Positions 348 through 24,591 of a stretch of DNA of 64,000 nucleotides are shown one piece after another. The stretch is taken from contig CAISPD010000179.1 of assembly GCA_903887275.1 (NCBI GenBank), positions 16,912 to 80,911 on the forward strand, read 5' to 3'. The notes beneath the pieces were generated by a model, which saw only the letters and a list, made by a program, of their open reading frames with translations, was not told where the DNA came from and made no database searches. Every line of letters begins with the position of its first letter. The first letter of the stretch is position 1. The stretch is from an uncultured Mucilaginibacter sp. (GTDB lineage: Bacteria; Bacteroidota; Bacteroidia; Sphingobacteriales; Sphingobacteriaceae). The position numbers and the translations under genes were made by a program.

Positions 348-2378
348 TTAATAATTTGAAGTATATAGCCTATTCCCGGCAAGTGAGCGTGCAATTTCAG
401 CAAGTCGTACAAACTCTGAACGGTATCCATCTTCATCTTTTCCCCGGGCGTTTCGCGCAATGGTGATAACCTGTTCGTAATTGGCTGATTGTTTAAACGG
501 AGAATTTCGAAGCAGCATCCCGAATTCGGCCACTGCCGAGGCAAATCGGAAATCGCTTGAGCAACTGTTAAAGGAAGCGGGCATATCCTGAACAACGGCA
601 GTTGTCATTTTGCTATAACCCGAATCGGGTTCCTTATACCTGAATTTGATCGTCATTAACTCATTGGCATACGGTGAGGCCGGTTTATTTTTTGGATGCT
701 GGTATTTTAGCGGATCATCGTTATTGCTGTATTCATCATTATAACCCTGAGGTACGATTTCGTAAAGTGCCGTAACGGTATGTCCCGAACCCATATCTCC
801 TGCATCTTTCATGTCATTATTAAAATCCTCATTGTTCAACATCCGGTCTTCATAACCCAGCAATCTGTAGGACTGAACCCTTACCGGATTAAACTCCACC
901 TGCAGTTTAACGTCTTTGGCAACCAGGTACAAGGTACTGGCAAAACCGTCTATCAATGCTCTTTTTGCTTCGCTCAGGTTATCGATATAGGCATAATTAC
1001 CGTTGCCTTTATCTGCCAGTATCTCCATTTTACTATCCTTCAAATTACCCATACCAACGCCCAGGATCGTAATAGGGACGTTACTGTATCTTTCGTGGAT
1101 GATCAGGTTTTCCATATCCCCATCGCTTGATCGGCCAATATTAAAATCCCCATCCGTAGCCATAATTATGCGATTGTTGCCGCCGCTAATATAATTTTCA
1201 CGTGCAATGGCATAAGCCATTTTGATACCTTCGGCACCGGCAGTTGAACCACCCGCCTGTAAATGATCTATAGCACCAAAGATTAGATCGCGCATATCAC
1301 AAGGTGTCGATTCCAGTTGCACACCTGCCTGGCCCGAATAAGTAACTATTGCCACCCGGTCCTGGGGACGCAGCCGGGAAACCAGCATTTTCATTGCAGT
1401 TTTTACCAGTGGTAATTTTTTGGGCGCGGCCATCGAGCCAGAAACGTCAAGCAGAAATACCAGATTTGAAGCGGGTAGCTGACTGTTATCGATATCGCGG
1501 GCTTTAAGGCCAACACGTACCAGCCGGTGATTTGGATTCCAGGGTGCCGATGATACTTCGGTAGTTATGGCTACGGGTTGATTTTGATTTGGCGCTGCCA
1601 GATCGTATTTAAAATAGTTGATCATTTCTTCTACCCTTACCGCATTGGCCGGAGGTAATTTGCCGCTATTAATAAAGCGGCGAACATTACTATAGGATGC
1701 CGGGTCAACATCTATCCCAAATGTGGATAATGGCACTTCTTTGGGGTTGTTAAAGCTATTCTCAAAAATGGGCTGATAGCTCTCCATCGAATTACCGCCG
1801 CTATAAGGTTTTACTAAAAAGGGCCTTTTTTTTATCAGGTCGTACCTGTTACCGCTGTTTTTTTGGGCGCTAAGGTTTGGCACATGTGAATTGATGACCG
1901 GGGCCTGATTTTGATAATCATTCAGCGATTGCCCGGTTCCTGGCTTTTTTAAGTTGTAGGGCGGACTGGCAAGCTCCATCAGCTGATTGTTATTACCGGT
2001 ATCGCCAGCTGGTTTAGTTTTCTCATCGTGGGGTTTATTGATTTTAAACCGACCAGAATTTGCCTGCGTTAAGGTATTATCGTCAGGATCCAGAAAAATG
2101 TTTAGCGTGTCTGTTTTTCCAATGCTGATGCTTTTGCTTTTAAAGCCATTAAAACTAAAAACAAGTTTACTGTCTCTATCGGATATATCAATGGTGTAGA
2201 TGCCCCGCTTATCGGCAAATACTCCTTCCGTATTGCTTCCATTAATTTTTACCTGAGCCCCCGGAATGGGTAATTTATCATCGCTTCCAAATACAGCTCC
2301 TGTTATATGGCGGATATCGTTGCACTTGAATGCAGTAAAGGCTGCGACTACCAAAGTGATGAATAATAACTTTTTCAT
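348..2378 (-). CDS. YfbK-like vWA-domain protein (signal peptide, carboxypeptidase-regulatory-like domain, VWA, DUF3520-like C-terminus)
   Basis: LLDVSGSM MIDAS motif, TDGDFN, LSTFGIDVDPASY; start moved to MKKLLF (ATG 2378) within track ORF 348..2423. Confidence 0.85.
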   Translation of the reverse strand: MKKLLFITLVVAAFTAFKCNDIRHITGAVFGSDDKLPIPGAQVKINGSNTEGVFADKRGIYTIDISDRDSKLVFSFNGFKSKSISIGKTDTLNIFLDPDDNTLTQANSGRFKINKPHDEKTKPAGDTGNNNQLMELASPPYNLKKPGTGQSLNDYQNQAPVINSHVPNLSAQKNSGNRYDLIKKRPFLVKPYSGGNSMESYQPIFENSFNNPKEVPLSTFGIDVDPASYSNVRRFINSGKLPPANAVRVEEMINYFKYDLAAPNQNQPVAITTEVSSAPWNPNHRLVRVGLKARDIDNSQLPASNLVFLLDVSGSMAAPKKLPLVKTAMKMLVSRLRPQDRVAIVTYSGQAGVQLESTPCDMRDLIFGAIDHLQAGGSTAGAEGIKMAYAIARENYISGGNNRIIMATDGDFNIGRSSDGDMENLIIHERYSNVPITILGVGMGNLKDSKMEILADKGNGNYAYIDNLSEAKRALIDGFASTLYLVAKDVKLQVEFNPVRVQSYRLLGYEDRMLNNEDFNNDMKDAGDMGSGHTVTALYEIVPQGYNDEYSNNDDPLKYQHPKNKPASPYANELMTIKFRYKEPDSGYSKMTTAVVQDMPASFNSCSSDFRFASAVAEFGMLLRNSPFKQSANYEQVITIARNARGKDEDGYRSEFVRLAEIARSLAGNRLYTSNY

Positions 2379-2456
2379 TTTATTGTTTTTTATAGCAGGA
2401 TGCAGTTTGGTTTCGATTTCCATAAGCGGATGAAAAATTTTAATTTGTAACCCGCA

Positions 2457-3029
2457 ATGAAGTTTTTCAAAAGGTCGGGAAAACCGGAAAATAGGAGCGA
2501 CGAGGAGCTTTTGAACAGCTACCGCAACAGCGGTGATCTGGCTTTGCTGGGCCTGCTTTTTGAAAGATATATGCCGATGTTATATGGTGTATGCCTTAAA
2601 TACCTGAAGGATGAAGAAGCCGCGAAAGACGCAGTAATGGGTATATTTGAAGAGCTGATAAGCAAAGTAAAACAACATGAGGTAAAGCAGTTCAGAAGCT
2701 GGGTATACGTTTTGGGACGCAATTTTTGTCTGATGCAAATAAGGGCCGGCAAAAATAGGGAAGAACTTAGTTTAGACGAAGTTATGGAATCGCTGCCCTT
2801 TTTGCATCCTGAAGAAAACAACCAAAAAGAAGAGGCTTTAAGTACCCTGGAAAAATGTATGCAGAAGCTAAATGAAGCACAGCGCCAAAGTGTACAACTA
2901 TTTTACCTGGAAGAAAAGTGCTATAAGGAAGTGGTAGAACTTACCGGCTACAGCATGAATGATGTCAAAAGTTATTTGCAGAATGGTAGGCGAAACCTGA
3001 AAATTTGTTTGGAGAAAAATCGTGCGTAA
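2457..3029 (+). CDS. ECF sigma-70 factor
   Basis: 190 aa; region 2 (AAKDAVMGIF...FRSWVY..GRNFCL) and region 4 HTH (CYKEVVELTGYSMNDVKSYLQNGRRNLK). Confidence 0.9.
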   Translation: MKFFKRSGKPENRSDEELLNSYRNSGDLALLGLLFERYMPMLYGVCLKYLKDEEAAKDAVMGIFEELISKVKQHEVKQFRSWVYVLGRNFCLMQIRAGKNREELSLDEVMESLPFLHPEENNQKEEALSTLEKCMQKLNEAQRQSVQLFYLEEKCYKEVVELTGYSMNDVKSYLQNGRRNLKICLEKNRA

Positions 3030-4350
3030 AGACCACCAACATATAGCCCGGATAAAAAAATACAACAGCGGCCAGCTGGACGTGCGCGCCATGCATCAAC
3101 TTGAGAGGGAAGCACTGGATGATCCATTCCTTGCAGATGCGCTTGAAGGATATCAATCGGCAGTTCCCGGGCAGGAGGCAAACCTTGCAGAGCTGCAGCA
3201 GCGCCTGCAATTGAGGGTTGAACCCAAAGTGCGACAAATGATCGCCTGGCGACAGTTGGCTATAGCAGCATCGATCCTGATCTTTTTTGGTATTTGTACA
3301 TGGTATTTCCTTCCCACCAAAAAAGGGAATACCCTACAGCTGGTTGAAAATATAAAGCCTGCAGCACAGGATAAGCAATCCATAACGCAAACGCCGGCTG
3401 CATCAACTGATGCTACTGATGCAAAGCCTTCGGCCAGTCAGTCAATGCCCAATAACACGGCATTTGCTCCAGCCCTGAAAGCTGAAAAAGGTTTAGCAGG
3501 AGACAAAAATATATCAACTGCTTATTCAAATCCGGTGCAGGCAGATACAGCAGTTTTAGGAGCTAAATCTGCAAGCCCTTTAAATACCGACGAACAATTA
3601 AAAAGCCCATCTTTTGCTGGCGTCGCTAATGCAAAATCAATTGATAAACAACAATCCACTGCATCATTGAACGAAGTGGAGGTAGCTCAGGCTGATGCCA
3701 GCGCCCGGAAAAAGGCTGTACCACAGGTTGCTGCACAATCAAATAAAGCATCCCGTCAGGAAACGCTAATACAAAGCAAAGTTGATGGTGTTGTTGTAAC
3801 ACCTGCAAATAAAACGCTCAGCGGCACCGTTACCGGCTTGAATGGCATGCCCCTGCCCGGTGCAGTTGTAAAACTGGCGGGCAGTAATTTTGGCGTAATA
3901 ACTGATGAGAAGGGTAGGTTTGTGATGCACGACGTGCCCGAAAAGGATAATATTACGGTTGGATACATTGGGTATAGTCAGAAACAGATCAGGGTAAATG
4001 GCGAAGATTCGGTCAATGTATCCCTGTCGCCTGCTTCGCATGCTAACGACTTGCGCAATACTGGTTCTATGGACTCCCATAGTACTACGGATGCACATCC
4101 CAGCGCTGGCTGGAAAGCACTTGAAAATTACCTTGCAAAAAACGCCAGCTCAGCTGATGGCCAAACCGGAAAGGTTAATCTTTCATTCTCAGTTGATGCT
4201 CAGGGGAATCTCAGTAATTTTAAAATTCTCAAAAGCCTGAGCAATGCAGCAGATCAAAAAGCCATAGACCTGCTGGTTCATGGACCTGGTTGGATAGGTA
4301 ATGCCGATAGCAAGGTGCATGAAGTTAAGCTAACGGTAGAGTTCAGATAG
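3022..4350 (+). CDS. Putative anti-sigma factor (N-terminal helical domain, single TM, carboxypeptidase-regulatory-like domain, TonB C-terminal-like domain)
   Basis: GTG start overlaps sigma stop; LEREALDDPFLADALEG; TM LAIAASILIFFGICTWYF; LSGTVTG..PLPGAVV; C-terminal GKVNLSFSVDAQG. Confidence 0.7.
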   Translation: MRKDHQHIARIKKYNSGQLDVRAMHQLEREALDDPFLADALEGYQSAVPGQEANLAELQQRLQLRVEPKVRQMIAWRQLAIAASILIFFGICTWYFLPTKKGNTLQLVENIKPAAQDKQSITQTPAASTDATDAKPSASQSMPNNTAFAPALKAEKGLAGDKNISTAYSNPVQADTAVLGAKSASPLNTDEQLKSPSFAGVANAKSIDKQQSTASLNEVEVAQADASARKKAVPQVAAQSNKASRQETLIQSKVDGVVVTPANKTLSGTVTGLNGMPLPGAVVKLAGSNFGVITDEKGRFVMHDVPEKDNITVGYIGYSQKQIRVNGEDSVNVSLSPASHANDLRNTGSMDSHSTTDAHPSAGWKALENYLAKNASSADGQTGKVNLSFSVDAQGNLSNFKILKSLSNAADQKAIDLLVHGPGWIGNADSKVHEVKLTVEFR

Positions 4351-4415
4351 CGGAATCTGGTATTGTCTTAACCTGGCAACAGTTGTTAAAACCTTAAAAT
4401 GGTACAGCGATCTTA

Positions 4416-5423
4416 TTAAACCAGGCGCAATAGCGCGAAAACGCCAGCAGCTATTAATGCTGAAACCGGGATGGTTATTATCCATGCCCAGATCAGGTTA
4501 ACAGTAACACCCCAGCGTACTGCCGATAAGCGCTTGGTTAGCCCGACACCGATAATAGATCCAGTAATGGTATGTGTAGTAGATACCGGAATGCCAAAGT
4601 ATTGCGTAAAAAATAAGGTGATCGCACCGGCAGTTTCGGCACTAACACCTTCCAGCGGTGTTATTTTGGTAATTCGCGAGCCCATGGTTTTAACAATTTT
4701 CCAACCACCAGATAAAGTACCAAGGGCAATAGCTGAATAGCAGGCCAACGGTATCCAGTTAGGCATCATGGCACCAGAGCCAATCACTTTTGCAGCAATA
4801 AGAGCAACGTAAATAATACCCATTACTTTTTGAGCATCATTGCCACCGTGTGCGTAGCTAAGCAGGGCCGATGATACTAATTGCATGCGTTTAAACCATT
4901 TCTCGGCGGTTGCAGGTCGCGAGTTTTTACTGAGGTGAAGCACTATTATAGTAACGATATAAGCTACTATGAGCCCTATAAGCGGGGCCAATACGATATA
5001 GGCGATGGTGGTAAGCACTAGTTTTAAATTGATAGCCGTTATACCATTAGCGCCCATATAGATAGCGTTGGTGATACCTGCACCAGCAAAGCCACCAATA
5101 AGGGTATGTGACGAACTGGAAGGAATACCAAACCACCAGGTGATCAGATTCCAGGTAATTGCTGCTATTAATCCGGCTAATAGTACATGCAGGGTTACAA
5201 AATGCTCGTTAACGATTTTTGATACGGTTTTGGCTACATTATGCTCTTTAACAAAAAAGAAAACAATAAAGTTGAAGGTTGCAGCCCAAAGAACCGCCTG
5301 AAAAGGTGTAAGTACCTTAGTTGAAACAATGGTTGCTATAGAGTTTGCCGCATCATGAAAACCATTGGTATAATCAAACAATAGTGCCAGGCAAATTACG
5401 AGTACGAGGGTGCTTGTTACCAT
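4416..5423 (-). CDS. pit: PiT-family inorganic phosphate transporter
   Basis: Both PiT signatures GFHDAANS and GGNDAQK; PVSTTH. Confidence 0.93.
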   Translation of the reverse strand: MVTSTLVLVICLALLFDYTNGFHDAANSIATIVSTKVLTPFQAVLWAATFNFIVFFFVKEHNVAKTVSKIVNEHFVTLHVLLAGLIAAITWNLITWWFGIPSSSSHTLIGGFAGAGITNAIYMGANGITAINLKLVLTTIAYIVLAPLIGLIVAYIVTIIVLHLSKNSRPATAEKWFKRMQLVSSALLSYAHGGNDAQKVMGIIYVALIAAKVIGSGAMMPNWIPLACYSAIALGTLSGGWKIVKTMGSRITKITPLEGVSAETAGAITLFFTQYFGIPVSTTHTITGSIIGVGLTKRLSAVRWGVTVNLIWAWIITIPVSALIAAGVFALLRLV

Positions 5424-7973: not shown

Positions 7974-9284
7974 TCAGAACTCCACGTGCGCCCGCAAACC
8001 AAATACATTTACTGGTCCACGGTCTGCATTATAAGCCGGATGAAGGATAAACTGGTAATCGGGAGAAAGCCAGATTTTTTTCTGGAAGGCGTTGATCTTG
8101 TAATAGAGCTCGGCTATAAGTTCCGTCGAGTAATTAAGCTGACCGTCGCCAATAATAAAACCATAGCCGCCTGCCGCCAGATAAGCTCTGTGATCTGCTG
8201 AAAGTCCGTTGGCTATAAATGCAAGTCCCAATTCGTCGTCCGCCCGTTTCCAGGAGTTGCCTTTAAGCACAGCGCCGAACGAAAAAGAACGGTCAATCTC
8301 GGTAAAAAACCAGGTTTCCGTATGTCCATCGTTATAACTTGCTTTTGCGAAAACACCGAAGTCTCTGCTGAGGTATTGCTCAGCATTTATTCCAAATCCA
8401 TATTTATGCCTGCCGTAGTGCTGCGTGCTGTCAATATCAGGTGCCGAAGGATTTTGCGCCAATGCCAATTTGTAATTACCAAACTTGCCATTGTTCAGAA
8501 AGGTAAGTATCCTGAAAGCGCCTTTATTGCCGCCTATAATATATCGCTTTTCAAACTCGAGTGTTTGGGTATTGGCATCGGCTATTTTGGCATCCCAAAC
8601 AGATTGATTGGCCTGGGTTGTAACGAGGGTTAGTGCAAAACGTAATGTCCAGTCGGGCTGTCCAAGTTCGGCGGTTGCGCCAAGAACGTAACCACGGGTA
8701 TTGGCAGGGTAGTCCCAGGCCCCATTGTCCATTAATGCCCAATTCATGAATTGGCTTCGCGGATCGTGACTCAGGCTATTGTTGTCGAAAAAGTCGGCCA
8801 TGCCAAACTTGCCGATCACGAGCGAGAAGTACCGTTTGCTTTTTAGCCCGGCGAGTTGATTGATATCATCCTCGATCGTGTCTTTTTCGGTACCCCATTC
8901 AAAGGTTTGTTTAAAGTAAAGACGTGCAATGTAGATCTTGTTCTGTACTCCGCCTACCCTGAAAGTTTCACCATTCGGAAATCCGGCTACACCCAGCGTT
9001 TGACTTAAACCTGCGCCGCCCGAGATCTCCGGATTAAAATAGGCTTCGGCACCTTTCCATAGTCGTGTGCCGCCAAAAAGTGTAGAAGTGATAGACGATT
9101 GTGTTTCATCTTTTACAGATAAGCTGTTTTTACCCGAATACGGAGCAATTATTGCAGGCTTATATTGGGTTATTATGGTTTGCTGAAAATGAAGGTTGCT
9201 GCGCTGGTGCTTTAAGGTATCCTGGGCAATTACGCAGTTCAATAAGGCAATCAGAAGTATAAATGTAAAAGTATATTTTTTCAT
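7974..9284 (-). CDS. OprB-like (carbohydrate porin family) outer-membrane beta-barrel
   Basis: Signal peptide; GAWDYPANTRGY; C-terminal NADRGPVNVFGLRAHVEF ending in Phe. Confidence 0.75.
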   Translation of the reverse strand: MKKYTFTFILLIALLNCVIAQDTLKHQRSNLHFQQTIITQYKPAIIAPYSGKNSLSVKDETQSSITSTLFGGTRLWKGAEAYFNPEISGGAGLSQTLGVAGFPNGETFRVGGVQNKIYIARLYFKQTFEWGTEKDTIEDDINQLAGLKSKRYFSLVIGKFGMADFFDNNSLSHDPRSQFMNWALMDNGAWDYPANTRGYVLGATAELGQPDWTLRFALTLVTTQANQSVWDAKIADANTQTLEFEKRYIIGGNKGAFRILTFLNNGKFGNYKLALAQNPSAPDIDSTQHYGRHKYGFGINAEQYLSRDFGVFAKASYNDGHTETWFFTEIDRSFSFGAVLKGNSWKRADDELGLAFIANGLSADHRAYLAAGGYGFIIGDGQLNYSTELIAELYYKINAFQKKIWLSPDYQFILHPAYNADRGPVNVFGLRAHVEF

Positions 9285-9293
9285 AAAACGATG

Positions 9294-9328
9294 TAAAAGT
9301 AGTCTGGCAACATTAAGTTGATGTTAAC
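9294..9328 (-). promoter_or_regulatory. Porin internal promoter with the same 21-bp box as DUF47-pit
   Basis: Minus GTTAACATCAACTTAATGTTG (9328-9308; 18/21 identical to the pit box), 6 nt gap, then TACTTTTA (-7-like). Confidence 0.5.
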
Positions 9329-9403
9329 GGGCAATAGGTAAGGTTGATGCCGGACCCGATGAACAGACTGCAAACTTACGGCTTGCCCGGGATTACGAAT
9401 GTC

Positions 9404-12121
9404 TTAAAGCCACTGATCAAATTTTTTAATGAACCACGTTTTAACTGCCTGTGTAAGCAAACAATAACACAGCAAAATACCTAGCAGCCAGGGGAAAAAA
9501 GCAAAAGGCAAGGCTTGCATTTTAAAGGCTGCAGCCAGCGGCGAAAACGGTATGAAAATGCCAATGGCCATAATTGCCGATGTTAAAGCAACTACGGGCG
9601 CCGTAGCCCAGCTTTGTATAAATGGTATTTTACGGGTGCGGATCATATGAACGATCAATGTTTGGGATAGCAAGCTTTCTACAAACCAGCCTGTTTGGAA
9701 AAAGGTTTGATGTTCGGGCGAATTTGCTTTGAATATGAACCACATCACTGCAAATGTTGCATAGTCAAATACCGAACTGATGGGGCCAACAAACATCATA
9801 AATTTGCTGATACCCCCTGCGTCCCATTTGCGGGGTGTAACAATATAATCCTCGTCCATAAAATCCCATGGGATGGATATCTGCGACACATCATATAAAA
9901 GGTTATTGATCAGGATCTGTATCGGAAGCATAGGTAAAAATGGCAGCAAAGCACTGGCCCCCAGCATACTGAACATATTGCCAAAATTACTGCTGGCGGT
10001 CATTTTGATGTATTTGATGATATTGCCGAATGTGCGGCGGCCATAGATCACTCCTTTACGCAGTACCATCAGATCTTTTTCAAGCAGAATTATATCAGCG
10101 CTTTCTTTGGCAATATCGACTGCTGTATCTACCGAAATACCCACGTCAGCATCCCGTAGCGCTGCCGCATCATTAATTCCATCGCCCATAAATCCTACGG
10201 TATGCCCTTTAGCCTGCAATACTTTTACAACCCGCGATTTTTGCAAGGGACTGAGTTTTGCCAGAATACTGATATCGTCTATCCGGCGGGCCAATTCTTC
10301 ATCACTCATGTCTTCCAGCTCCTTGCCCAGCAGGATATTGTTAATCGGTATGCCTACATCCTTGCATATCTTTTTGGTTACAACCTCGTTATCGCCGGTT
10401 AAAACTTTAATTGAAATGCCCAGGCGGCGCAATGCCTCAATGGAAGGTTTAGCAGAGGGCTTAGCCGGATCTAAAAAGCCAATAAAGCCAGTCAGGATCA
10501 TATTGCATTCATCAGCAACTGAATAGTTTAACGGGCGCTCTTCATATTCCTTAATAGCCACAATCAGCACCCGCAAACCTTCCTCATTTAATTTAGACGA
10601 TGTTTTCAAAATGGCCTGCCGCATCTTTTCATCCATCGGGATCACGTCGTCGGTGTCTATCTGCAAACTATTATCCTCGCCCGGATCAAAAGCAAAGCTG
10701 CATAGGTCCAGCATTTCTTCTACCGCACCTTTACAAATAAGCAGGTGTTTGTGATTTTTTTCTTCCAATATCACCGACATTCGCCTGCGTTGAAAATCGA
10801 AGGGGATCTCATCTACTTTTTTATAGGATTCGCCTTCCTTCAGGCAGGAGTGAAACTCGACATGCTCCAATACAGCAAGGTCAAGCAAATTTTTTAAGCC
10901 GGTTTGGTGATAGCTATTGAGGTAGGCCCATTTCATTACTTCGCTATCTTCCAGGCCATATACGTTCAAATGCCGTTCGAGTACAATTTTGTCCATCGTT
11001 AACGTGCCCGTTTTATCGGTACACAGTATGTCCATCGCACCGATATTCTGAATAGCATTCAGCCTTTTGACAACAACCTTGCGTTTCGACATGTTAACCG
11101 CTCCTTTAGCCAGGTTGGCGGTTACAATCATTGGCAACATTTCGGGAGTTAGTCCAACGGCGATGGAGATACCGAAAAGAAATGCCTCCAGCCAATTGTG
11201 TTTGGTAAGCCCGTTGATCAAAAACACCAGCGGCACCATAACCAGCATAAAGCGTATGAGTAACCAGCTTACACTATTAACGCCTTTATCAAAACTGGTT
11301 TCGGCCCGTTTGCCAACCAATGATTTGGAAAGAGAACCAAAATAGGTATCGCCACCAGTATTTACGACAATAGCCTGCGCTGTACCACTTACCACGTTGG
11401 TGCCCATAAAGCAAACATTATTGAGTTCAAGGGGCGATTTTTTGCTAGCGCCACGATCAGCAGAATCTGTTTTTTCAACCGGTAATGCTTCGCCGGTCAA
11501 TATTGCCTGGCTTACAAATAAGTCTTTTGACTGAAGGATACGGACATCCGCTGGGATCATATCTCCGGCCGACAATAAAATAAGGTCGCCGGAAACTAAT
11601 TTTTTGATATCGATCTCCTGTTTATCCTGCCCTTCCCTTACCACAGTAGCGGTAGTTTTAACCATCGACTTCAGCTTTTCTGCAGCCTGGTTACTCCTGA
11701 ATTCCTGGATAAAACGCAGCATGGCACTTAAGAACACCATGATGCTGATTACAATAACCGTAGTATAATCCCTATCGGCAGGTGCTTTAATAATGATTAC
11801 GTCAGTAATGGAAGAAATAACGGCCAGTACGATCAATACCCCAATAAAAGGGTTTAAAAAGGCTTCAAAAAACTGGATATACCATTTAGGTGCTTTTTCA
11901 TGGGCTACTTCATTGGGCCCATAGGTGCTCAATCTTTCCCTGACTTCATCTGCTGTAAGACCTTTATCGCTGGTTTCTAACTGTTGCAGAAAATCTGCTT
12001 TACTACTCGCTGATGCTCGTTTTATCTTTAACGTTGAAGCGCCGTCAGATTCATTGGATGAATTGCCGTTCTTTTTGGCCAGAGTTTTATAAACTGAATT
12101 GAAATTTTCTCTTTTAAGCAT
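9404..12121 (-). CDS. mgtA: Mg2+-importing P-type ATPase
   Basis: DKTGT, TGEA, PEMLP, GDGINDA; MTASSNFGNMFS and NLLYD typical of MgtA/B. Confidence 0.95.
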   Translation of the reverse strand: MLKRENFNSVYKTLAKKNGNSSNESDGASTLKIKRASASSKADFLQQLETSDKGLTADEVRERLSTYGPNEVAHEKAPKWYIQFFEAFLNPFIGVLIVLAVISSITDVIIIKAPADRDYTTVIVISIMVFLSAMLRFIQEFRSNQAAEKLKSMVKTTATVVREGQDKQEIDIKKLVSGDLILLSAGDMIPADVRILQSKDLFVSQAILTGEALPVEKTDSADRGASKKSPLELNNVCFMGTNVVSGTAQAIVVNTGGDTYFGSLSKSLVGKRAETSFDKGVNSVSWLLIRFMLVMVPLVFLINGLTKHNWLEAFLFGISIAVGLTPEMLPMIVTANLAKGAVNMSKRKVVVKRLNAIQNIGAMDILCTDKTGTLTMDKIVLERHLNVYGLEDSEVMKWAYLNSYHQTGLKNLLDLAVLEHVEFHSCLKEGESYKKVDEIPFDFQRRRMSVILEEKNHKHLLICKGAVEEMLDLCSFAFDPGEDNSLQIDTDDVIPMDEKMRQAILKTSSKLNEEGLRVLIVAIKEYEERPLNYSVADECNMILTGFIGFLDPAKPSAKPSIEALRRLGISIKVLTGDNEVVTKKICKDVGIPINNILLGKELEDMSDEELARRIDDISILAKLSPLQKSRVVKVLQAKGHTVGFMGDGINDAAALRDADVGISVDTAVDIAKESADIILLEKDLMVLRKGVIYGRRTFGNIIKYIKMTASSNFGNMFSMLGASALLPFLPMLPIQILINNLLYDVSQISIPWDFMDEDYIVTPRKWDAGGISKFMMFVGPISSVFDYATFAVMWFIFKANSPEHQTFFQTGWFVESLLSQTLIVHMIRTRKIPFIQSWATAPVVALTSAIMAIGIFIPFSPLAAAFKMQALPFAFFPWLLGILLCYCLLTQAVKTWFIKKFDQWL

Positions 12122-12173
12122 CGTAGTATGATTTGCCCTGTTTTACCAGGCGGCTTAAAAGCAGACGATCCGG

Positions 12174-12224
12174 TTAGCAGGAGGTTAGAAGTTCTTTTAA
12201 AGTGCTACTCGGACCGGTATCCAT
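12174..12224 (-). CDS. Candidate mgtA leader peptide MDTGPSSTLKELLTSC (16 aa)
   Basis: ATG 12224 after an A-rich context, TAA 12176-12174; lies between the promoter and mgtA ATG. Confidence 0.5.
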   Translation of the reverse strand: MDTGPSSTLKELLTSC

Positions 12225-12246
12225 TTTTTTAATTTTTAATTTGACG

Positions 12247-12284
12247 CAAAAATAAGATTTAATTTAATGCAATGGTATTGCATT
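12247..12284 (-). promoter_or_regulatory. mgtA promoter (-7 TATTTTTG 12254-12247) with overlapping perfect palindrome AATGCAAT-GGT-ATTGCATT (12266-12284)
   Basis: Directly visible 8-3-8 inverted repeat over the -33 region. Confidence 0.6.
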
Positions 12285-12716
12285 GATCCTGCATTTGTCA
12301 CATATTCCTTTTACCACCAATTTCATTTCGGCAGCAGAGAAACCGGCAGGTAATAAAACCTCCGGGATTCTTGAATTTGGCAGACAGAATGTCTCTTTGC
12401 AAGTGCCGCAATAAAAGTGTACATGCAGGTCGTGATGCTCCTTTTTATCGCATTCCTCAGGGCATAGCGCGTACTTGGGTACACCCGTTCCGTCTTCTAT
12501 GGTATGAATCAGGCCGTTTTGCTCAAAGGTCTTTAACGTGCGATAAATGGTTGTACGATCTGCAGGCAGTAATAATTTCTCCAGATCACTCAGGCTAAGA
12601 GCATGCTGATGTTTTAAAAGCTTGTCTAAAACCAAAACCCGCATTGCGGTAGGGTTAATTTTTTTGATGGCCAGCAATTGCGTCGTTTTACCGCTTATTT
12701 TTTCCGCTATGTCCAT
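12264..12716 (-). CDS. Fur-family transcriptional regulator
   Basis: DRTTIYRTLKTF HTH, HxHFYCxxC and CDKC metal sites; ATG 12716 (track GTG 12719). Confidence 0.88.
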   Translation of the reverse strand: MDIAEKISGKTTQLLAIKKINPTAMRVLVLDKLLKHQHALSLSDLEKLLLPADRTTIYRTLKTFEQNGLIHTIEDGTGVPKYALCPEECDKKEHHDLHVHFYCGTCKETFCLPNSRIPEVLLPAGFSAAEMKLVVKGICDKCRINAIPLH

Positions 12717-12717
12717 C

Positions 12718-12749
12718 ACCGTATTACCATTGCTTTCGGGGCAAATCTA
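12718..12749 (-). promoter_or_regulatory. Fur-like gene promoter (-7 TAGATTTG) with a degenerate copy of the palindrome
   Basis: Minus AAAGCAATGGTAATACGGT (12736-12718), 14/19 match to the mgtA palindrome, just downstream of the -7 element at 12749-12742. Confidence 0.5.
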
Positions 12750-13400
12750 GGGTAAATTATCTACTTCATCATAAAACTGCTTAAGATACAGTTCCATAAA
12801 ATGGTGCCGCTGTTCGGCAAGAATTTTGCCGGTTGGGGTATTCATCTTATCTTTTAATAAGAGTAATTTTTCATAAAAATGATTGATACTGGGCGCTTGA
12901 GATGATTTATACACCTCTTTGCTCATATTTAAATTAGGGCTGATCTCGGGGTTATAAATTTCGCGCCCTTTAAATCCTCCATAACTAAATGCCCTTGCTA
13001 TCCCAATAGCACCAATGGCATCCAGCCGGTCAGCATCCTGCACAATAGCTAATTCATTTGATTGAAAACTAATCTTATCAAAGCCCGATTTAAAAGATAT
13101 ATTTCTGATGATCTGCTGAACATGCTCAATGATCTCGGGTGCAATAGCCATTGATGTTAAAAATTCTCCAGCCAACGCCGGTCCCAGTGTTTCATCTCCA
13201 CCGTGAAACTTACTGTCGGCAATGTCGTGCAGTAAAGCAGCCAGTTCAACAACCAGTAGATCACAAGGCTCTGATTTGGCTATGTGCCGGGCATTGGTTA
13301 AAACCCGCTGTATGTGCCACCAATCATGCCCACCTTCGGCATGCTGTAATGTTGCCTTAACAAAAGAGACTGCTTTACTGATGATTTCGTTGTGTTCCAT
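12747..13400 (-). CDS. HD-domain phosphohydrolase (YedJ-like)
   Basis: GHDWWHI, ALLHDIAD, QDADRLDAIGAIGIAR, NHFYEKL. Confidence 0.9.
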   Translation of the reverse strand: MEHNEIISKAVSFVKATLQHAEGGHDWWHIQRVLTNARHIAKSEPCDLLVVELAALLHDIADSKFHGGDETLGPALAGEFLTSMAIAPEIIEHVQQIIRNISFKSGFDKISFQSNELAIVQDADRLDAIGAIGIARAFSYGGFKGREIYNPEISPNLNMSKEVYKSSQAPSINHFYEKLLLLKDKMNTPTGKILAEQRHHFMELYLKQFYDEVDNLP

Positions 13401-24563: not shown

Positions 24564-24591
24564 AAGAGCCCCGAATTTCGGGGCTCTTTTT
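24564..24591 (+). terminator. Intrinsic terminator
   Basis: AAGAGCCCCGAA/TTCGGGGCTCTT followed by T-run. Confidence 0.85.

What the first reader, a model, noticed from the sequence alone, without database searches (positions are those of the whole stretch)
12247..12749. Fur-like gene encodes its probable operator in its own last codons, over the mgtA promoter
Seen: the codons for N-A-I-P-L-H form the perfect palindrome AATGCAAT-GGT-ATTGCATT (12266-12284) across the -33 region of the mgtA promoter. A 14/19 copy (12718-12736) lies right after the Fur-like gene's own -7 element. Known: Fur-family repressors bind 19-bp palindromes and often autoregulate. Inference: a Fur-family protein represses an Mg2+ ATPase, which would be unusual. 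Alternatively the site is a relic of a former heavy-metal ATPase at this position.
Basis: partly seen in the sequence, partly recalled or inferred. Interest (0 to 1): 0.7.

Follow-up and report, generated by a model that had tools for sequence, protein, structure and literature searches.

The report
Fur-like operator at the mgtA promoter
A 15-19 bp DNA palindrome at the end of a divergent Fur-family regulator gene is almost certainly that regulator's conserved binding site. It sits at a fixed place in the promoter of the next gene, which is a Mg2+ importer (mgtA) here and a Zn/Cd exporter in most relatives, pointing to an unstudied branch of Fur regulators.

Summary
The perfect palindrome AATGCAAT-GGT-ATTGCATT (12266-12284) is real. 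Alone it is not unusual, since perfect 8-3-8 palindromes occur about 2.2 times per 64 kb in this genome. Comparison with relatives makes it significant.

- **Conservation:** In 77 of 80 related loci (Mucilaginibacter, Pedobacter, Chitinophagaceae, Hymenobacteraceae) the core TGCAAT-N3-ATTGCA lies beside the Fur-like gene, usually right after its stop codon. It sits 12-13 nt upstream of a Bacteroidota -7 box, so it is centred on about -33.
- **DNA, not peptide:** The arms are invariant, while the spacer and the peptide tail are not. The overlap with codons here comes from a frameshifted C-terminus.
- **Phyletic link:** In 81 genomes of the genus, the palindrome-plus-box pattern occurs in 18, and 17 of these carry the regulator.
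- **Trans site:** One genome has the operator, promoter, uORF and mgtA unit unlinked from its regulator.
- **Ancestry:** Most relatives precede Zn/Cd P1B ATPases. A Mucilaginibacter clade switched to mgtA, mgtC or an OprB porin and kept all candidate Cys/His ligands.

The "14/19 second copy" exists, but it is weak and absent in 22 relatives, so autoregulation is unsupported. Binding, the metal sensed and the direction of regulation remain untested. An unchecked earlier scan note (e1-3099724) reports a Fur-like-P1B gene pair in another genome.

The parts
12264..12716 (-). Divergent Fur-family regulator gene (150 aa from the ATG; a GTG lies at 12719). Its last 7 codons (I-N-A-I-P-L-H) are a lineage-specific extension that reads through the operator.
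   Evidence: Pfam FUR scores 31.9 bits against a cut-off of 23.1. All NCBIfam Fur, Zur and PerR equivalogs score far below their cut-offs. The AF2 model (pLDDT 86) hits only Fur, PerR, Zur and Mur structures. Orthologues end at C-x2-C-x-x-stop. The identical 150-aa protein is on record.
12266..12284 (.). Operator-like palindrome AATGCAAT-N3-ATTGCATT. The conserved core TGCAAT-N3-ATTGCA is 12268-12282.
   Evidence: locate it. The core is present beside the regulator gene in 77 of 80 related loci, with invariant arms and a variable spacer. It resembles the Nur box tTGCaa-N5-ttGCAA.
12247..12254 (-). -7 box TATTTTTG (TAnnTTTG type) of the mgtA promoter, 13 nt downstream of the operator core.
   Evidence: Read from the sequence. 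The same 12-13 nt spacing occurs in 68 of the 71 loci with the palindrome close to the stop codon. The composite pattern occurs 20 times in 81 genus genomes and 0 times in the reversed control.
12174..12224 (-). 16-codon uORF (MDTGPS...) in the mgtA leader.
Evidence: Read from the sequence. The ATGGATACnGGTCCGAG start is conserved in 10 mgtA leaders of the genus, 4 of them without the operator.
9404..12121 (-). mgtA, a Mg2+-importing P-type ATPase (905 aa) and the gene driven by the operator-promoter.
   Evidence: NCBIfam NF011702 scores 1350 bits and TIGR01524 scores 1288 bits, both far above their cut-offs.
7974..9284 (-). OprB-family porin gene, next downstream. In mgtA-less relatives it directly follows the operator-promoter.
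   Evidence: Pfam OprB, E = 8e-41. Synteny. A clean indel of leader plus mgtA separates L094 from L096.
12742..12749 (-). -7 box TAGATTTG, the regulator gene's own promoter, overlapping the stop of the upstream HD gene.
   Evidence: Read from the sequence. Orthologues each have a TAnnTTTG-like box shortly before their ATG.
12718..12736 (.). Weak operator-like sequence (14/19; arms 11/16) in the regulator's 5' UTR and start codon.
   Evidence: chance about 0.004-0.04 per 60 nt. Not conserved in 22 clade members. Probably not functional.
12747..13400 (-). HD-domain phosphohydrolase gene, syntenic with the regulator throughout the Mucilaginibacter clade.
   Evidence: Pfam HD and NCBIfam PRK10119, the latter below its cut-off. 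Synteny.

Best explanation
The palindrome is the cognate operator of the adjacent divergent Fur-family regulator. It forms part of a fixed promoter module made of three elements:
- the 15-bp core TGCAAT-N3-ATTGCA;
- 13 nt of variable sequence;
- a Bacteroidota -7 box.

The dimer site is therefore centred at about -33, where sigma normally contacts DNA. In this genome the module drives the uORF leader, mgtA and probably the OprB porin.

**Origin of the codon overlap (shown).** In most relatives the gene stops one base before the core. Here, and in the sister MAG, a changed reading frame after the last C-x2-C removes that stop, and translation runs 7 codons through the operator. The codon overlap is thus a by-product, and the selected object is the DNA.

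**Mechanism (inferred).**
- The protein binds as a dimer and blocks RNA polymerase, acting as a repressor. I put the odds at about 2:1 over activator.
- Its signal is a thiophilic transition metal such as Zn, Cd or Co. The evidence is the invariant set of His and Cys residues, and the fact that most family members precede Zn/Cd exporters.
- The promoter architecture and ligand residues are identical in the exporter-linked and mgtA-linked clades, so the response should have the same sign in both. I favour release or induction at metal excess (about 50%). That would raise Mg2+ import when Zn or Co poisons Mg2+ sites.
- The alternative is classical metal-loaded repression of an entry route (about 30%).

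**Shown versus inferred.**
- Shown: conservation, spacing, co-occurrence, fold and ancestry.
- Inferred: binding, repression, the metal and the sign.
For: **Conservation as DNA**
- The core lies next to the regulator gene in 77 of 80 loci from several Bacteroidota families.
- The arm positions are invariant in 71 aligned sites, while the spacer, the flanks and the overlapping peptide vary.

**Fixed geometry**
- There are 12-13 nt to TAnnTTTG or TTnnTTTG in 68 of 71 loci, whatever the downstream gene.

**Phyletic co-occurrence**
- The composite pattern occurs in 18 of 81 Mucilaginibacter genomes and 0 times in the reversed control.
- 17 of those 18 genomes have the regulator orthologue. Only 1 of 62 genomes without the orthologue has the pattern.

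**A trans site**
- G033 carries operator, -7 box, uORF and mgtA on contig 10 with no adjacent regulator. Its orthologue is on contig 7.
- mgtA genes with the same uORF in genomes that lack the orthologue have no palindrome.

**Family membership and precedent**
- Pfam, AF2 and Foldseek place the protein in the Fur family.
- The recognition-helix residues Y58-R59 are invariant.
- The operator matches the 6-5-6 Nur box at 5+5 of 6+6 positions.

**Not an RNA stem**
- There are no compensatory changes. Position 5 changes A to C nine times while its partner stays an invariant T.
- Folding gives z = -0.97, and no terminator is called.

**A Mg2+ module**
- Clade members put mgtA, mgtC or OprB after the operator.
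Against: - No binding or expression data exist.
- The palindrome alone is within chance for this genome.
- A repressor of exporters that must leave DNA when metal rises would be atypical for the Fur family, whose members usually bind DNA when metal-loaded. The inferred sign is therefore uncertain.
- In P. putida, loss of mgtA improves fitness in cobalt. This fits metal-loaded repression better than induction.
- In 13 clade members mgtA is absent and the operator-promoter faces the OprB promoter. The target is therefore not strictly mgtA.
- Related genomes are not independent, which inflates the co-occurrence counts.
Confidence: 0.68

Rival explanations
1. The operator assignment is the same but the logic is the classical Fur one. 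The metal-loaded protein binds and shuts off mgtA and the porin when Zn, Co or Ni is high, closing entry routes for toxic cations.
For: Fur-family proteins are normally metal-activated repressors. MgtA-type pumps carry or are inhibited by Co, Zn and Ni, and mgtA mutants of P. putida gain fitness in cobalt.
Against: The same ligand set and the same promoter geometry precede Zn/Cd exporters in about 50 of 80 relatives. There, repression at high metal would make no sense.
Confidence: 0.2
2. The protein is an activator. The promoter lacks a -33 element at the canonical distance, and the dimer bound there recruits RNA polymerase, as Zur does at exporter promoters.
For: No TTTG lies 19-21 nt upstream of the -7 box. 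Zur acts as an activator of exporter genes in Streptomyces and Xanthomonas, according to the titles and abstracts listed. Zur-DNA structures are among the fold hits.
Against: A site centred at about -33 overlaps the sigma contact region. Many of the -7 boxes are perfect consensus, so the promoters may fire without help. Nothing is known about activation in Bacteroidota at this position.
Confidence: 0.15
3. The palindrome is bound by some other factor, or is simply a promoter or 3'-end RNA hairpin element. Its adjacency to the Fur-like gene would then be synteny without a regulatory link.
For: No binding data exist. The element always lies at the gene's 3' end, where terminators occur. An 8-bp stem can form.
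Against: - The stem is A/U-rich, has no U tract and is no more stable than shuffles.
- The sequence is conserved without covariation.
- It occurs without an upstream gene end in G033 and G072.
- It is present almost only in genomes that have the regulator.
- It matches a Fur-family box type.
Confidence: 0.08
4. The site is a functionless relic of a former heavy-metal ATPase promoter, or a chance palindrome created by the codons N-A-I-x-L-H.
For: The family's ancestral neighbours are P1B ATPases. A 1-mismatch copy elsewhere in the genome is purely coding and encodes SNAIVLH. Perfect 8-3-8 palindromes are common.
Against: The core is perfect in all 25 members of the mgtA/OprB clade, while the flanks and the peptide diverge. 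The spacing to the -7 box is kept, and the unit was moved together with mgtA in G033.
Confidence: 0.04

Closest known systems
Nur of Streptomyces coelicolor and its Nur box (tTGCaa-N5-ttGCAA; PMC2691836)
   Same: Both are Fur-family dimers with an operator of conserved outer half-sites. The core here, TGCAA-N5-TTGCA, matches 5+5 of the 6+6 Nur-box positions. A Tyr-Arg pair sits in the recognition helix of both.
   Different: - The sequence relation is only distant; the profile hit to the chain 3eyy has E = 3.6e-7, no closer than to Fur, Zur or PerR.
- This family has extra invariant Cys residues (C85, C89, C111).
- The targets here are exporters or mgtA, whereas Nur controls Ni uptake and sodF.
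- The phylum differs.
Zur proteins that also control exporters (S. coelicolor zitB; Xanthomonas XC2976; PMC11077047, PMC2490734)
   Same: A Fur-family metal sensor is linked to a Zn exporter gene.
   Different: Those Zur proteins are primarily uptake repressors with AT-rich Zur boxes, and they activate exporters from other sites. This regulator scores far below the NCBIfam Zur cut-off (27 against 167 bits). In this genome it has a single local operator.
PerR/Fur control of the P1B ATPase PfeT (ZosA) in Bacillus subtilis (from my own knowledge, not checked here)
   Same: Fur-family proteins regulate a P1B efflux ATPase.
   Different: The operators are a different type (7-1-7), the signals are different (H2O2, Fe), and those regulators are global rather than neighbouring genes.
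Enterobacterial mgtA control (PhoPQ plus the Mg2+-sensing leader and the MgtL uORF; from my own knowledge)
   Same: mgtA has a leader with a short uORF, so control is layered.
   Different: Initiation there is controlled by a two-component system that responds to Mg2+. Here a Fur-family protein with Cys/His ligands sits at the promoter. No Rfam leader family matched.

Membership tests
Fur family (PF01475) | Sequence match above the curated threshold | tested here: met
   Pfam FUR scores 31.9 bits against a cut-off of 23.1, over residues 24-117. Profile hits cover the full length of Fur, Zur, PerR and Nur chains.
Fur family (PF01475) | Fold: an N-terminal winged helix plus a C-terminal alpha/beta dimerisation domain | tested here: met
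   The AF2 model has pLDDT 86 and pTM 0.78. The top 50 Foldseek PDB hits are all Fur, PerR, Zur or Mur, with TM up to 0.65.
Fur family (PF01475) | Structural Zn site made of two C-x2-C motifs | tested here: met
   C103, C106, C139 and C142 are invariant in 81 sequences. This is sequence evidence only; no metal was observed.
Fur family (PF01475) | Regulatory metal site of the H-H-D-H type between the domains | tested here: inconclusive
   H94, H95, D96, H98, H100 and H71 are invariant. However, the motif carries a 3-residue insertion, and there are extra invariant C85, C89 and C111. The geometry was not examined.
Fur family (PF01475) | Metal-dependent binding to an inverted repeat at a target promoter | not testable with these tools
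   Only in-silico support is available: the conserved palindrome, its spacing and its co-occurrence with the regulator.
Named Fur-family equivalogs (Fur, Zur, PerR) in NCBIfam | Score above the equivalog cut-off | tested here: not met
   The best scores are 28 bits (Fur, cut-off 220), 27 bits (Zur, cut-off 167) and 26 bits (PerRA, cut-off 200). The protein is not a member of any defined subfamily.
Nur-type regulators | 6-5-6 operator tTGCaa-N5-ttGCAA | tested here: inconclusive
   The operator is similar (5+5 of 12 positions, plus the extended T/A). The protein is no closer to Nur than to other family members. The Ni-site residues were not examined.
MgtA (P3B Mg2+ ATPase) | Equivalog score | tested here: met
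   TIGR01524 scores 1288 bits against a cut-off of 611. NF011702 scores 1351 bits against a cut-off of 975.
Bacteroidota sigma-A-type promoter | -7 box TAnnTTTG | tested here: met
   TATTTTTG lies at 12254-12247. An exact box occurs 12-13 nt after the core in 44 of 71 loci, and a one-off variant in a further 24.
Bacteroidota sigma-A-type promoter | -33 TTTG about 19-21 nt upstream of the -7 box (spacing from my own knowledge) | tested here: not met
   That position falls in the palindrome's spacer and inner arm. The only TTG there lies 15 nt from the box.

The most novel reading that the evidence does not exclude
A Cys/His-rich branch of the Fur family works with inverted logic. It sits on a -33 operator and leaves DNA when Zn, Cd or Co rises, switching on exporters. 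One Mucilaginibacter lineage rewired the same sensor to a Mg2+ acquisition module (mgtA, mgtC, OprB porin), so that transition-metal stress raises Mg2+ import.
Probability: 0.35. Interest if true: 0.8.

Novelty: new variant of a known kind. Interest (0 to 1): 0.6.

Why it matters
Fur-family proteins are textbook metal-loaded repressors of uptake genes. Exporters are usually assigned to MerR, ArsR or CsoR sensors, and mgtA to PhoPQ and RNA leaders.

This analysis defines a large, so far only generically annotated Bacteroidota Fur subfamily (596 proteins with E <= 1e-10; at least 536 genomic loci). For that subfamily it provides:
- a precise operator;
- a fixed promoter architecture;
- two unexpected target classes, Zn/Cd exporters and Mg2+ importers.

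The result is a directly testable system for two questions: how a Fur scaffold can control efflux, and how transition-metal stress is coupled to Mg2+ supply in soil Bacteroidota. It is also a clean example of a gene's reading frame drifting over a neighbouring operator.

Tried and rejected
- **Rfam.** Scanning 11900-12900 at E <= 1 found no known riboswitch or leader.
- **Other targets in the genome.** Copies with up to 2 mismatches of the 19-mer, and up to 1 mismatch of the core, are almost all inside long ORFs. The 1-mismatch copy on contig C95 is coding (SNAIVLH). I conclude there is no wider regulon in this genome.
- **A second operator upstream of the regulator.** None was found in 22 clade members, nor upstream of the RND operons in 25 loci.
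- **Terminator or RNA hairpin reading.** Rejected.
- **Apparent fusion in G065 and G079.** A 544-aa open frame suggested a fusion of the regulator to a larger protein. It resolved into two genes, the Fur-like gene and an M50 peptidase.
- **Distant paralogues (38-41% identity).** Most lack the motif, and only 4 of 18 have GCAA-N5-TTGC after the stop. The operator is therefore specific to this subfamily.
- **Literature.** Searches found no paper on this family or this motif apart from the Nur box.
- **Tools.** One malformed findings look-up failed.

Full report
**What is in the sequence**

All the genes below are on the minus strand, in this order:
- An HD-domain phosphohydrolase gene lies at 12747-13400.
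- A 150-aa gene follows at 12264-12716. Pfam places it in the Fur family at 31.9 bits against a cut-off of 23.1. NCBIfam's Fur, Zur and PerR equivalogs score far below their cut-offs.
- Next comes a 142-nt spacer.
- Then comes mgtA at 9404-12121. TIGR01524 scores 1288 bits and NF011702 scores 1351 bits.
- Last is an OprB-family porin gene at 7974-9284.

The perfect palindrome AATGCAAT-GGT-ATTGCATT is at 12266-12284. On the coding strand it reads AAT GCA ATA CCA TTG CAT T(AA), which encodes N-A-I-P-L-H and the stop. Thirteen nucleotides beyond the 15-bp core lies TATTTTTG (12254-12247), a Bacteroidota TAnnTTTG '-7' box. It is followed by a 16-codon uORF (12224-12174) and then mgtA.

**Chance**

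The 19-mer is unique in the 3.9-Mb genome. Perfect 8-3-8 palindromes of any sequence, however, occur 137 times in the genome, or about 2.2 per 64 kb, and there are five in this window. Nearly all other 0-1-mismatch copies of the core lie inside long ORFs. One of them encodes SNAIVLH, which shows that the codons N-A-I-x-L-H create the motif on their own. The palindrome by itself therefore proves nothing. The case rests on comparison with relatives.

**Comparison with relatives**

The genus is Mucilaginibacter, according to the record titles.
- In orthologues of 54-75% identity, the protein ends at C-x2-C-x-x-stop. TGCAAT-NCC-ATTGCA then starts directly after the stop codon.
- In 80 loci from Sphingobacteriaceae, Chitinophagaceae and Hymenobacteraceae, the core (up to 2 mismatches, mostly 0-1) lies within -45 to +60 of the stop in 71 loci. 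It lies slightly further away in 6 more.
- Across the 71 aligned sites the arms are invariant: T, G, C, A, A/C, T ... A/G, T, T, G, C, A. The 3-nt spacer and the flanks vary.
- The two variable arm positions are not compensated. For example, A changes to C nine times while its partner stays an invariant T. This argues against an RNA stem.
- The hairpin is also no more stable than shuffled sequence (z = -0.97), and no terminator is called.
- In 68 of the 71 loci a TAnnTTTG or TTnnTTTG box follows at 12-13 nt, whatever the downstream gene.
- The palindrome is therefore a fixed component of a promoter, centred at about -33.
- In roughly 18 loci the regulator's ORF runs into or through the palindrome, in different reading frames. 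The tails include NAIPLH, IAIALH, SIPLQ, NTIAAH and NAIQLH.
- In G000 and its sister MAG the usual stop is out of frame. The reading frame after the last Cys codon differs from the orthologues by one base.
- The DNA is therefore the conserved object, and the peptide overlap is incidental.

**Link between regulator and site**

- In 81 Mucilaginibacter genomes, the composite pattern (core, 13 nt, T[AT]nnTTTG) occurs 20 times in 18 genomes. It never occurs in the reversed control.
- Nineteen genomes have an orthologue at E <= 1e-40, and 17 of the 18 pattern-bearing genomes are among them. Only 1 of the 62 genomes without the orthologue has the pattern. Related genomes are not independent, so this is descriptive.
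- Two detached copies are informative.
  - G033 has the operator, -7 box, MDTGPS uORF and mgtA on contig 10 with no regulator nearby. Its regulator orthologue sits on contig 7 next to OprB.
  - G072 has operator-promoters on both sides of its regulator gene.
- mgtA genes with the same uORF in genomes lacking the orthologue (G018, G019, G030, G064) have no palindrome within 900 nt.
- G000 has only one other Fur-family gene, a canonical one on contig C6.

**Operator type**

The Nur box of the Fur-family protein Nur is tTGCaa-N5-ttGCAA, a 6-5-6 motif contacted through a Tyr-Arg pair of the recognition helix (PMC2691836). The core here contains TGCAA-N5-TTGCA, and Y58-R59 are invariant. The protein is nevertheless no closer to Nur than to Fur, Zur or PerR. 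An AF2 model built from 35 sequences (pLDDT 86) retrieves only Fur-family structures.

**What the family regulates**

- Of the 80 loci, 50 have a P1B ATPase downstream. Three representatives pass the Zn/Cd-type model TIGR01512 at about 500 bits, while the Cu model stays below its cut-off. These loci usually have a CzcA-family RND pump and a membrane-fusion protein upstream in the same orientation.
- The regulators followed by mgtA (10) or directly by OprB (13) form one supported clade (97/89; 25 rows, all Mucilaginibacter). This clade is nested among the P1B-linked ones. The root is at the midpoint only, so the ancestry is a parsimony inference.
- Within that clade mgtA presence is interspersed. 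L094 and L096 differ by a clean indel of leader plus mgtA between the operator-promoter and the OprB promoter.
- In G072 the operator is followed by a 102-aa ORF, an MgtC-family gene and OprB.
- The clade thus controls a Mg2+-related module, and the palindrome is perfect in all its members.

**Mechanism**

Every candidate ligand is invariant in both the exporter-linked and the mgtA/OprB-linked groups: H71, C85, C89, H94, H95, D96, H98, H100, C103, C106, C111, C139 and C142. The only consistent switch between the groups is I57/L57.
- With identical operators and spacing, both groups should respond to the same signal with the same sign.
- Cys/His ligands point to Zn, Cd or Co, and argue against Mg2+.
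- A site centred at -33 suggests occlusion of sigma, which means repression.
- For exporters that implies release at high metal, which is unusual for Fur proteins. It would make mgtA metal-induced.
- The opposite, classical logic fits mgtA well, because MgtA-type pumps admit or are inhibited by Co and Zn, and mgtA loss helps P. putida in cobalt. It does not fit exporters.

I cannot decide between these with the tools available, and both are listed with odds.

**The second site**

ACCGTATTACCATTGCTTT (12718-12736) matches 14/19 overall and 11/16 in the arms. The frequency of such matches gives about 0.004 per 60 nt, or about 0.04 counting arms only. None of 22 clade members has anything similar before its start codon. 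No operator precedes the RND operons that end with the regulator in 25 loci. Autoregulation is therefore not supported as a family trait, and it is at best weak in this genome.

**Novelty**

Public sources name these proteins only 'Fur family transcriptional regulator' or 'transcriptional repressor'. Full-text searches found no study of the family or of the motif. The scan had noted a Fur-like-P1B-2 gene pair in another genome (e1-3099724). I read this as a new variant of a known kind.

Noticed in passing
window 12174-12224 (-); loci L056-L060, L069, L071-L074: The mgtA leader uORF beginning MDTGPS (ATGGATACnGGTCCGAG) is conserved in 10 mgtA leaders of the genus, including 4 without the Fur-like operator. 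It is therefore an independent control layer. This was already a separate first-reader note.
   Followed up: partly
L061-L068, upstream of mgtA orthologues: A second, different mgtA leader type shares a motif like GCGGTCCCGGCTGA and has no uORF of the MDTGPS type. It may be an unrecognised Mg2+-responsive leader. No Rfam family matched the window's own leader.
   Followed up: no
L089, L090, L094-L096, L104 (upstream of OprB); compare window 9285-9403: Relatives carry a conserved TTTAGAC-N2-GTCTAAA palindrome next to a TTAGATTTG box at the OprB promoter. G000 lacks it and has a different upstream region.
   Followed up: no
L187 (G072:C31) 3413-5419: The regulator is flanked by two perfect operator-promoters. 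The upstream one is followed by about 480 nt with two short hydrophobic ORFs. The downstream one is followed by a 102-aa ORF, an MgtC-family gene and OprB.
   Followed up: partly
L186 (G065:C13) 1115-5061; also G079: An M50 (RseP-like, PDZ-containing) peptidase gene sits between the Fur-like gene and the operator-P1B ATPase unit.
   Followed up: partly
L092, L094, L096, L102, L108, L118, L134, at -137 from the stop: A 1-mismatch operator-like sequence TGCAyTTnnATTGCA lies inside the regulator's own coding region, at the codons for H-F-N-C-I. It is absent in G000, which has HFYCG. It is probably a codon coincidence.
   Followed up: no
G000:C188:23837-23855 (L006 about 4838): A 2-mismatch copy of the palindrome lies in an intergenic region about 290 nt upstream of a 1048-aa ORF. 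It is the only other intergenic near-match with a downstream gene.
   Followed up: no
window 24567, 28950, 42401, 48154: Four other perfect 8-3-8 palindromes occur in the window. The GC-rich one at 24567 looks like a hairpin.
   Followed up: no
G000:C201:712-3183: A second P-type ATPase with 42% identity to MgtA is present in the same genome and in many relatives.
   Followed up: no
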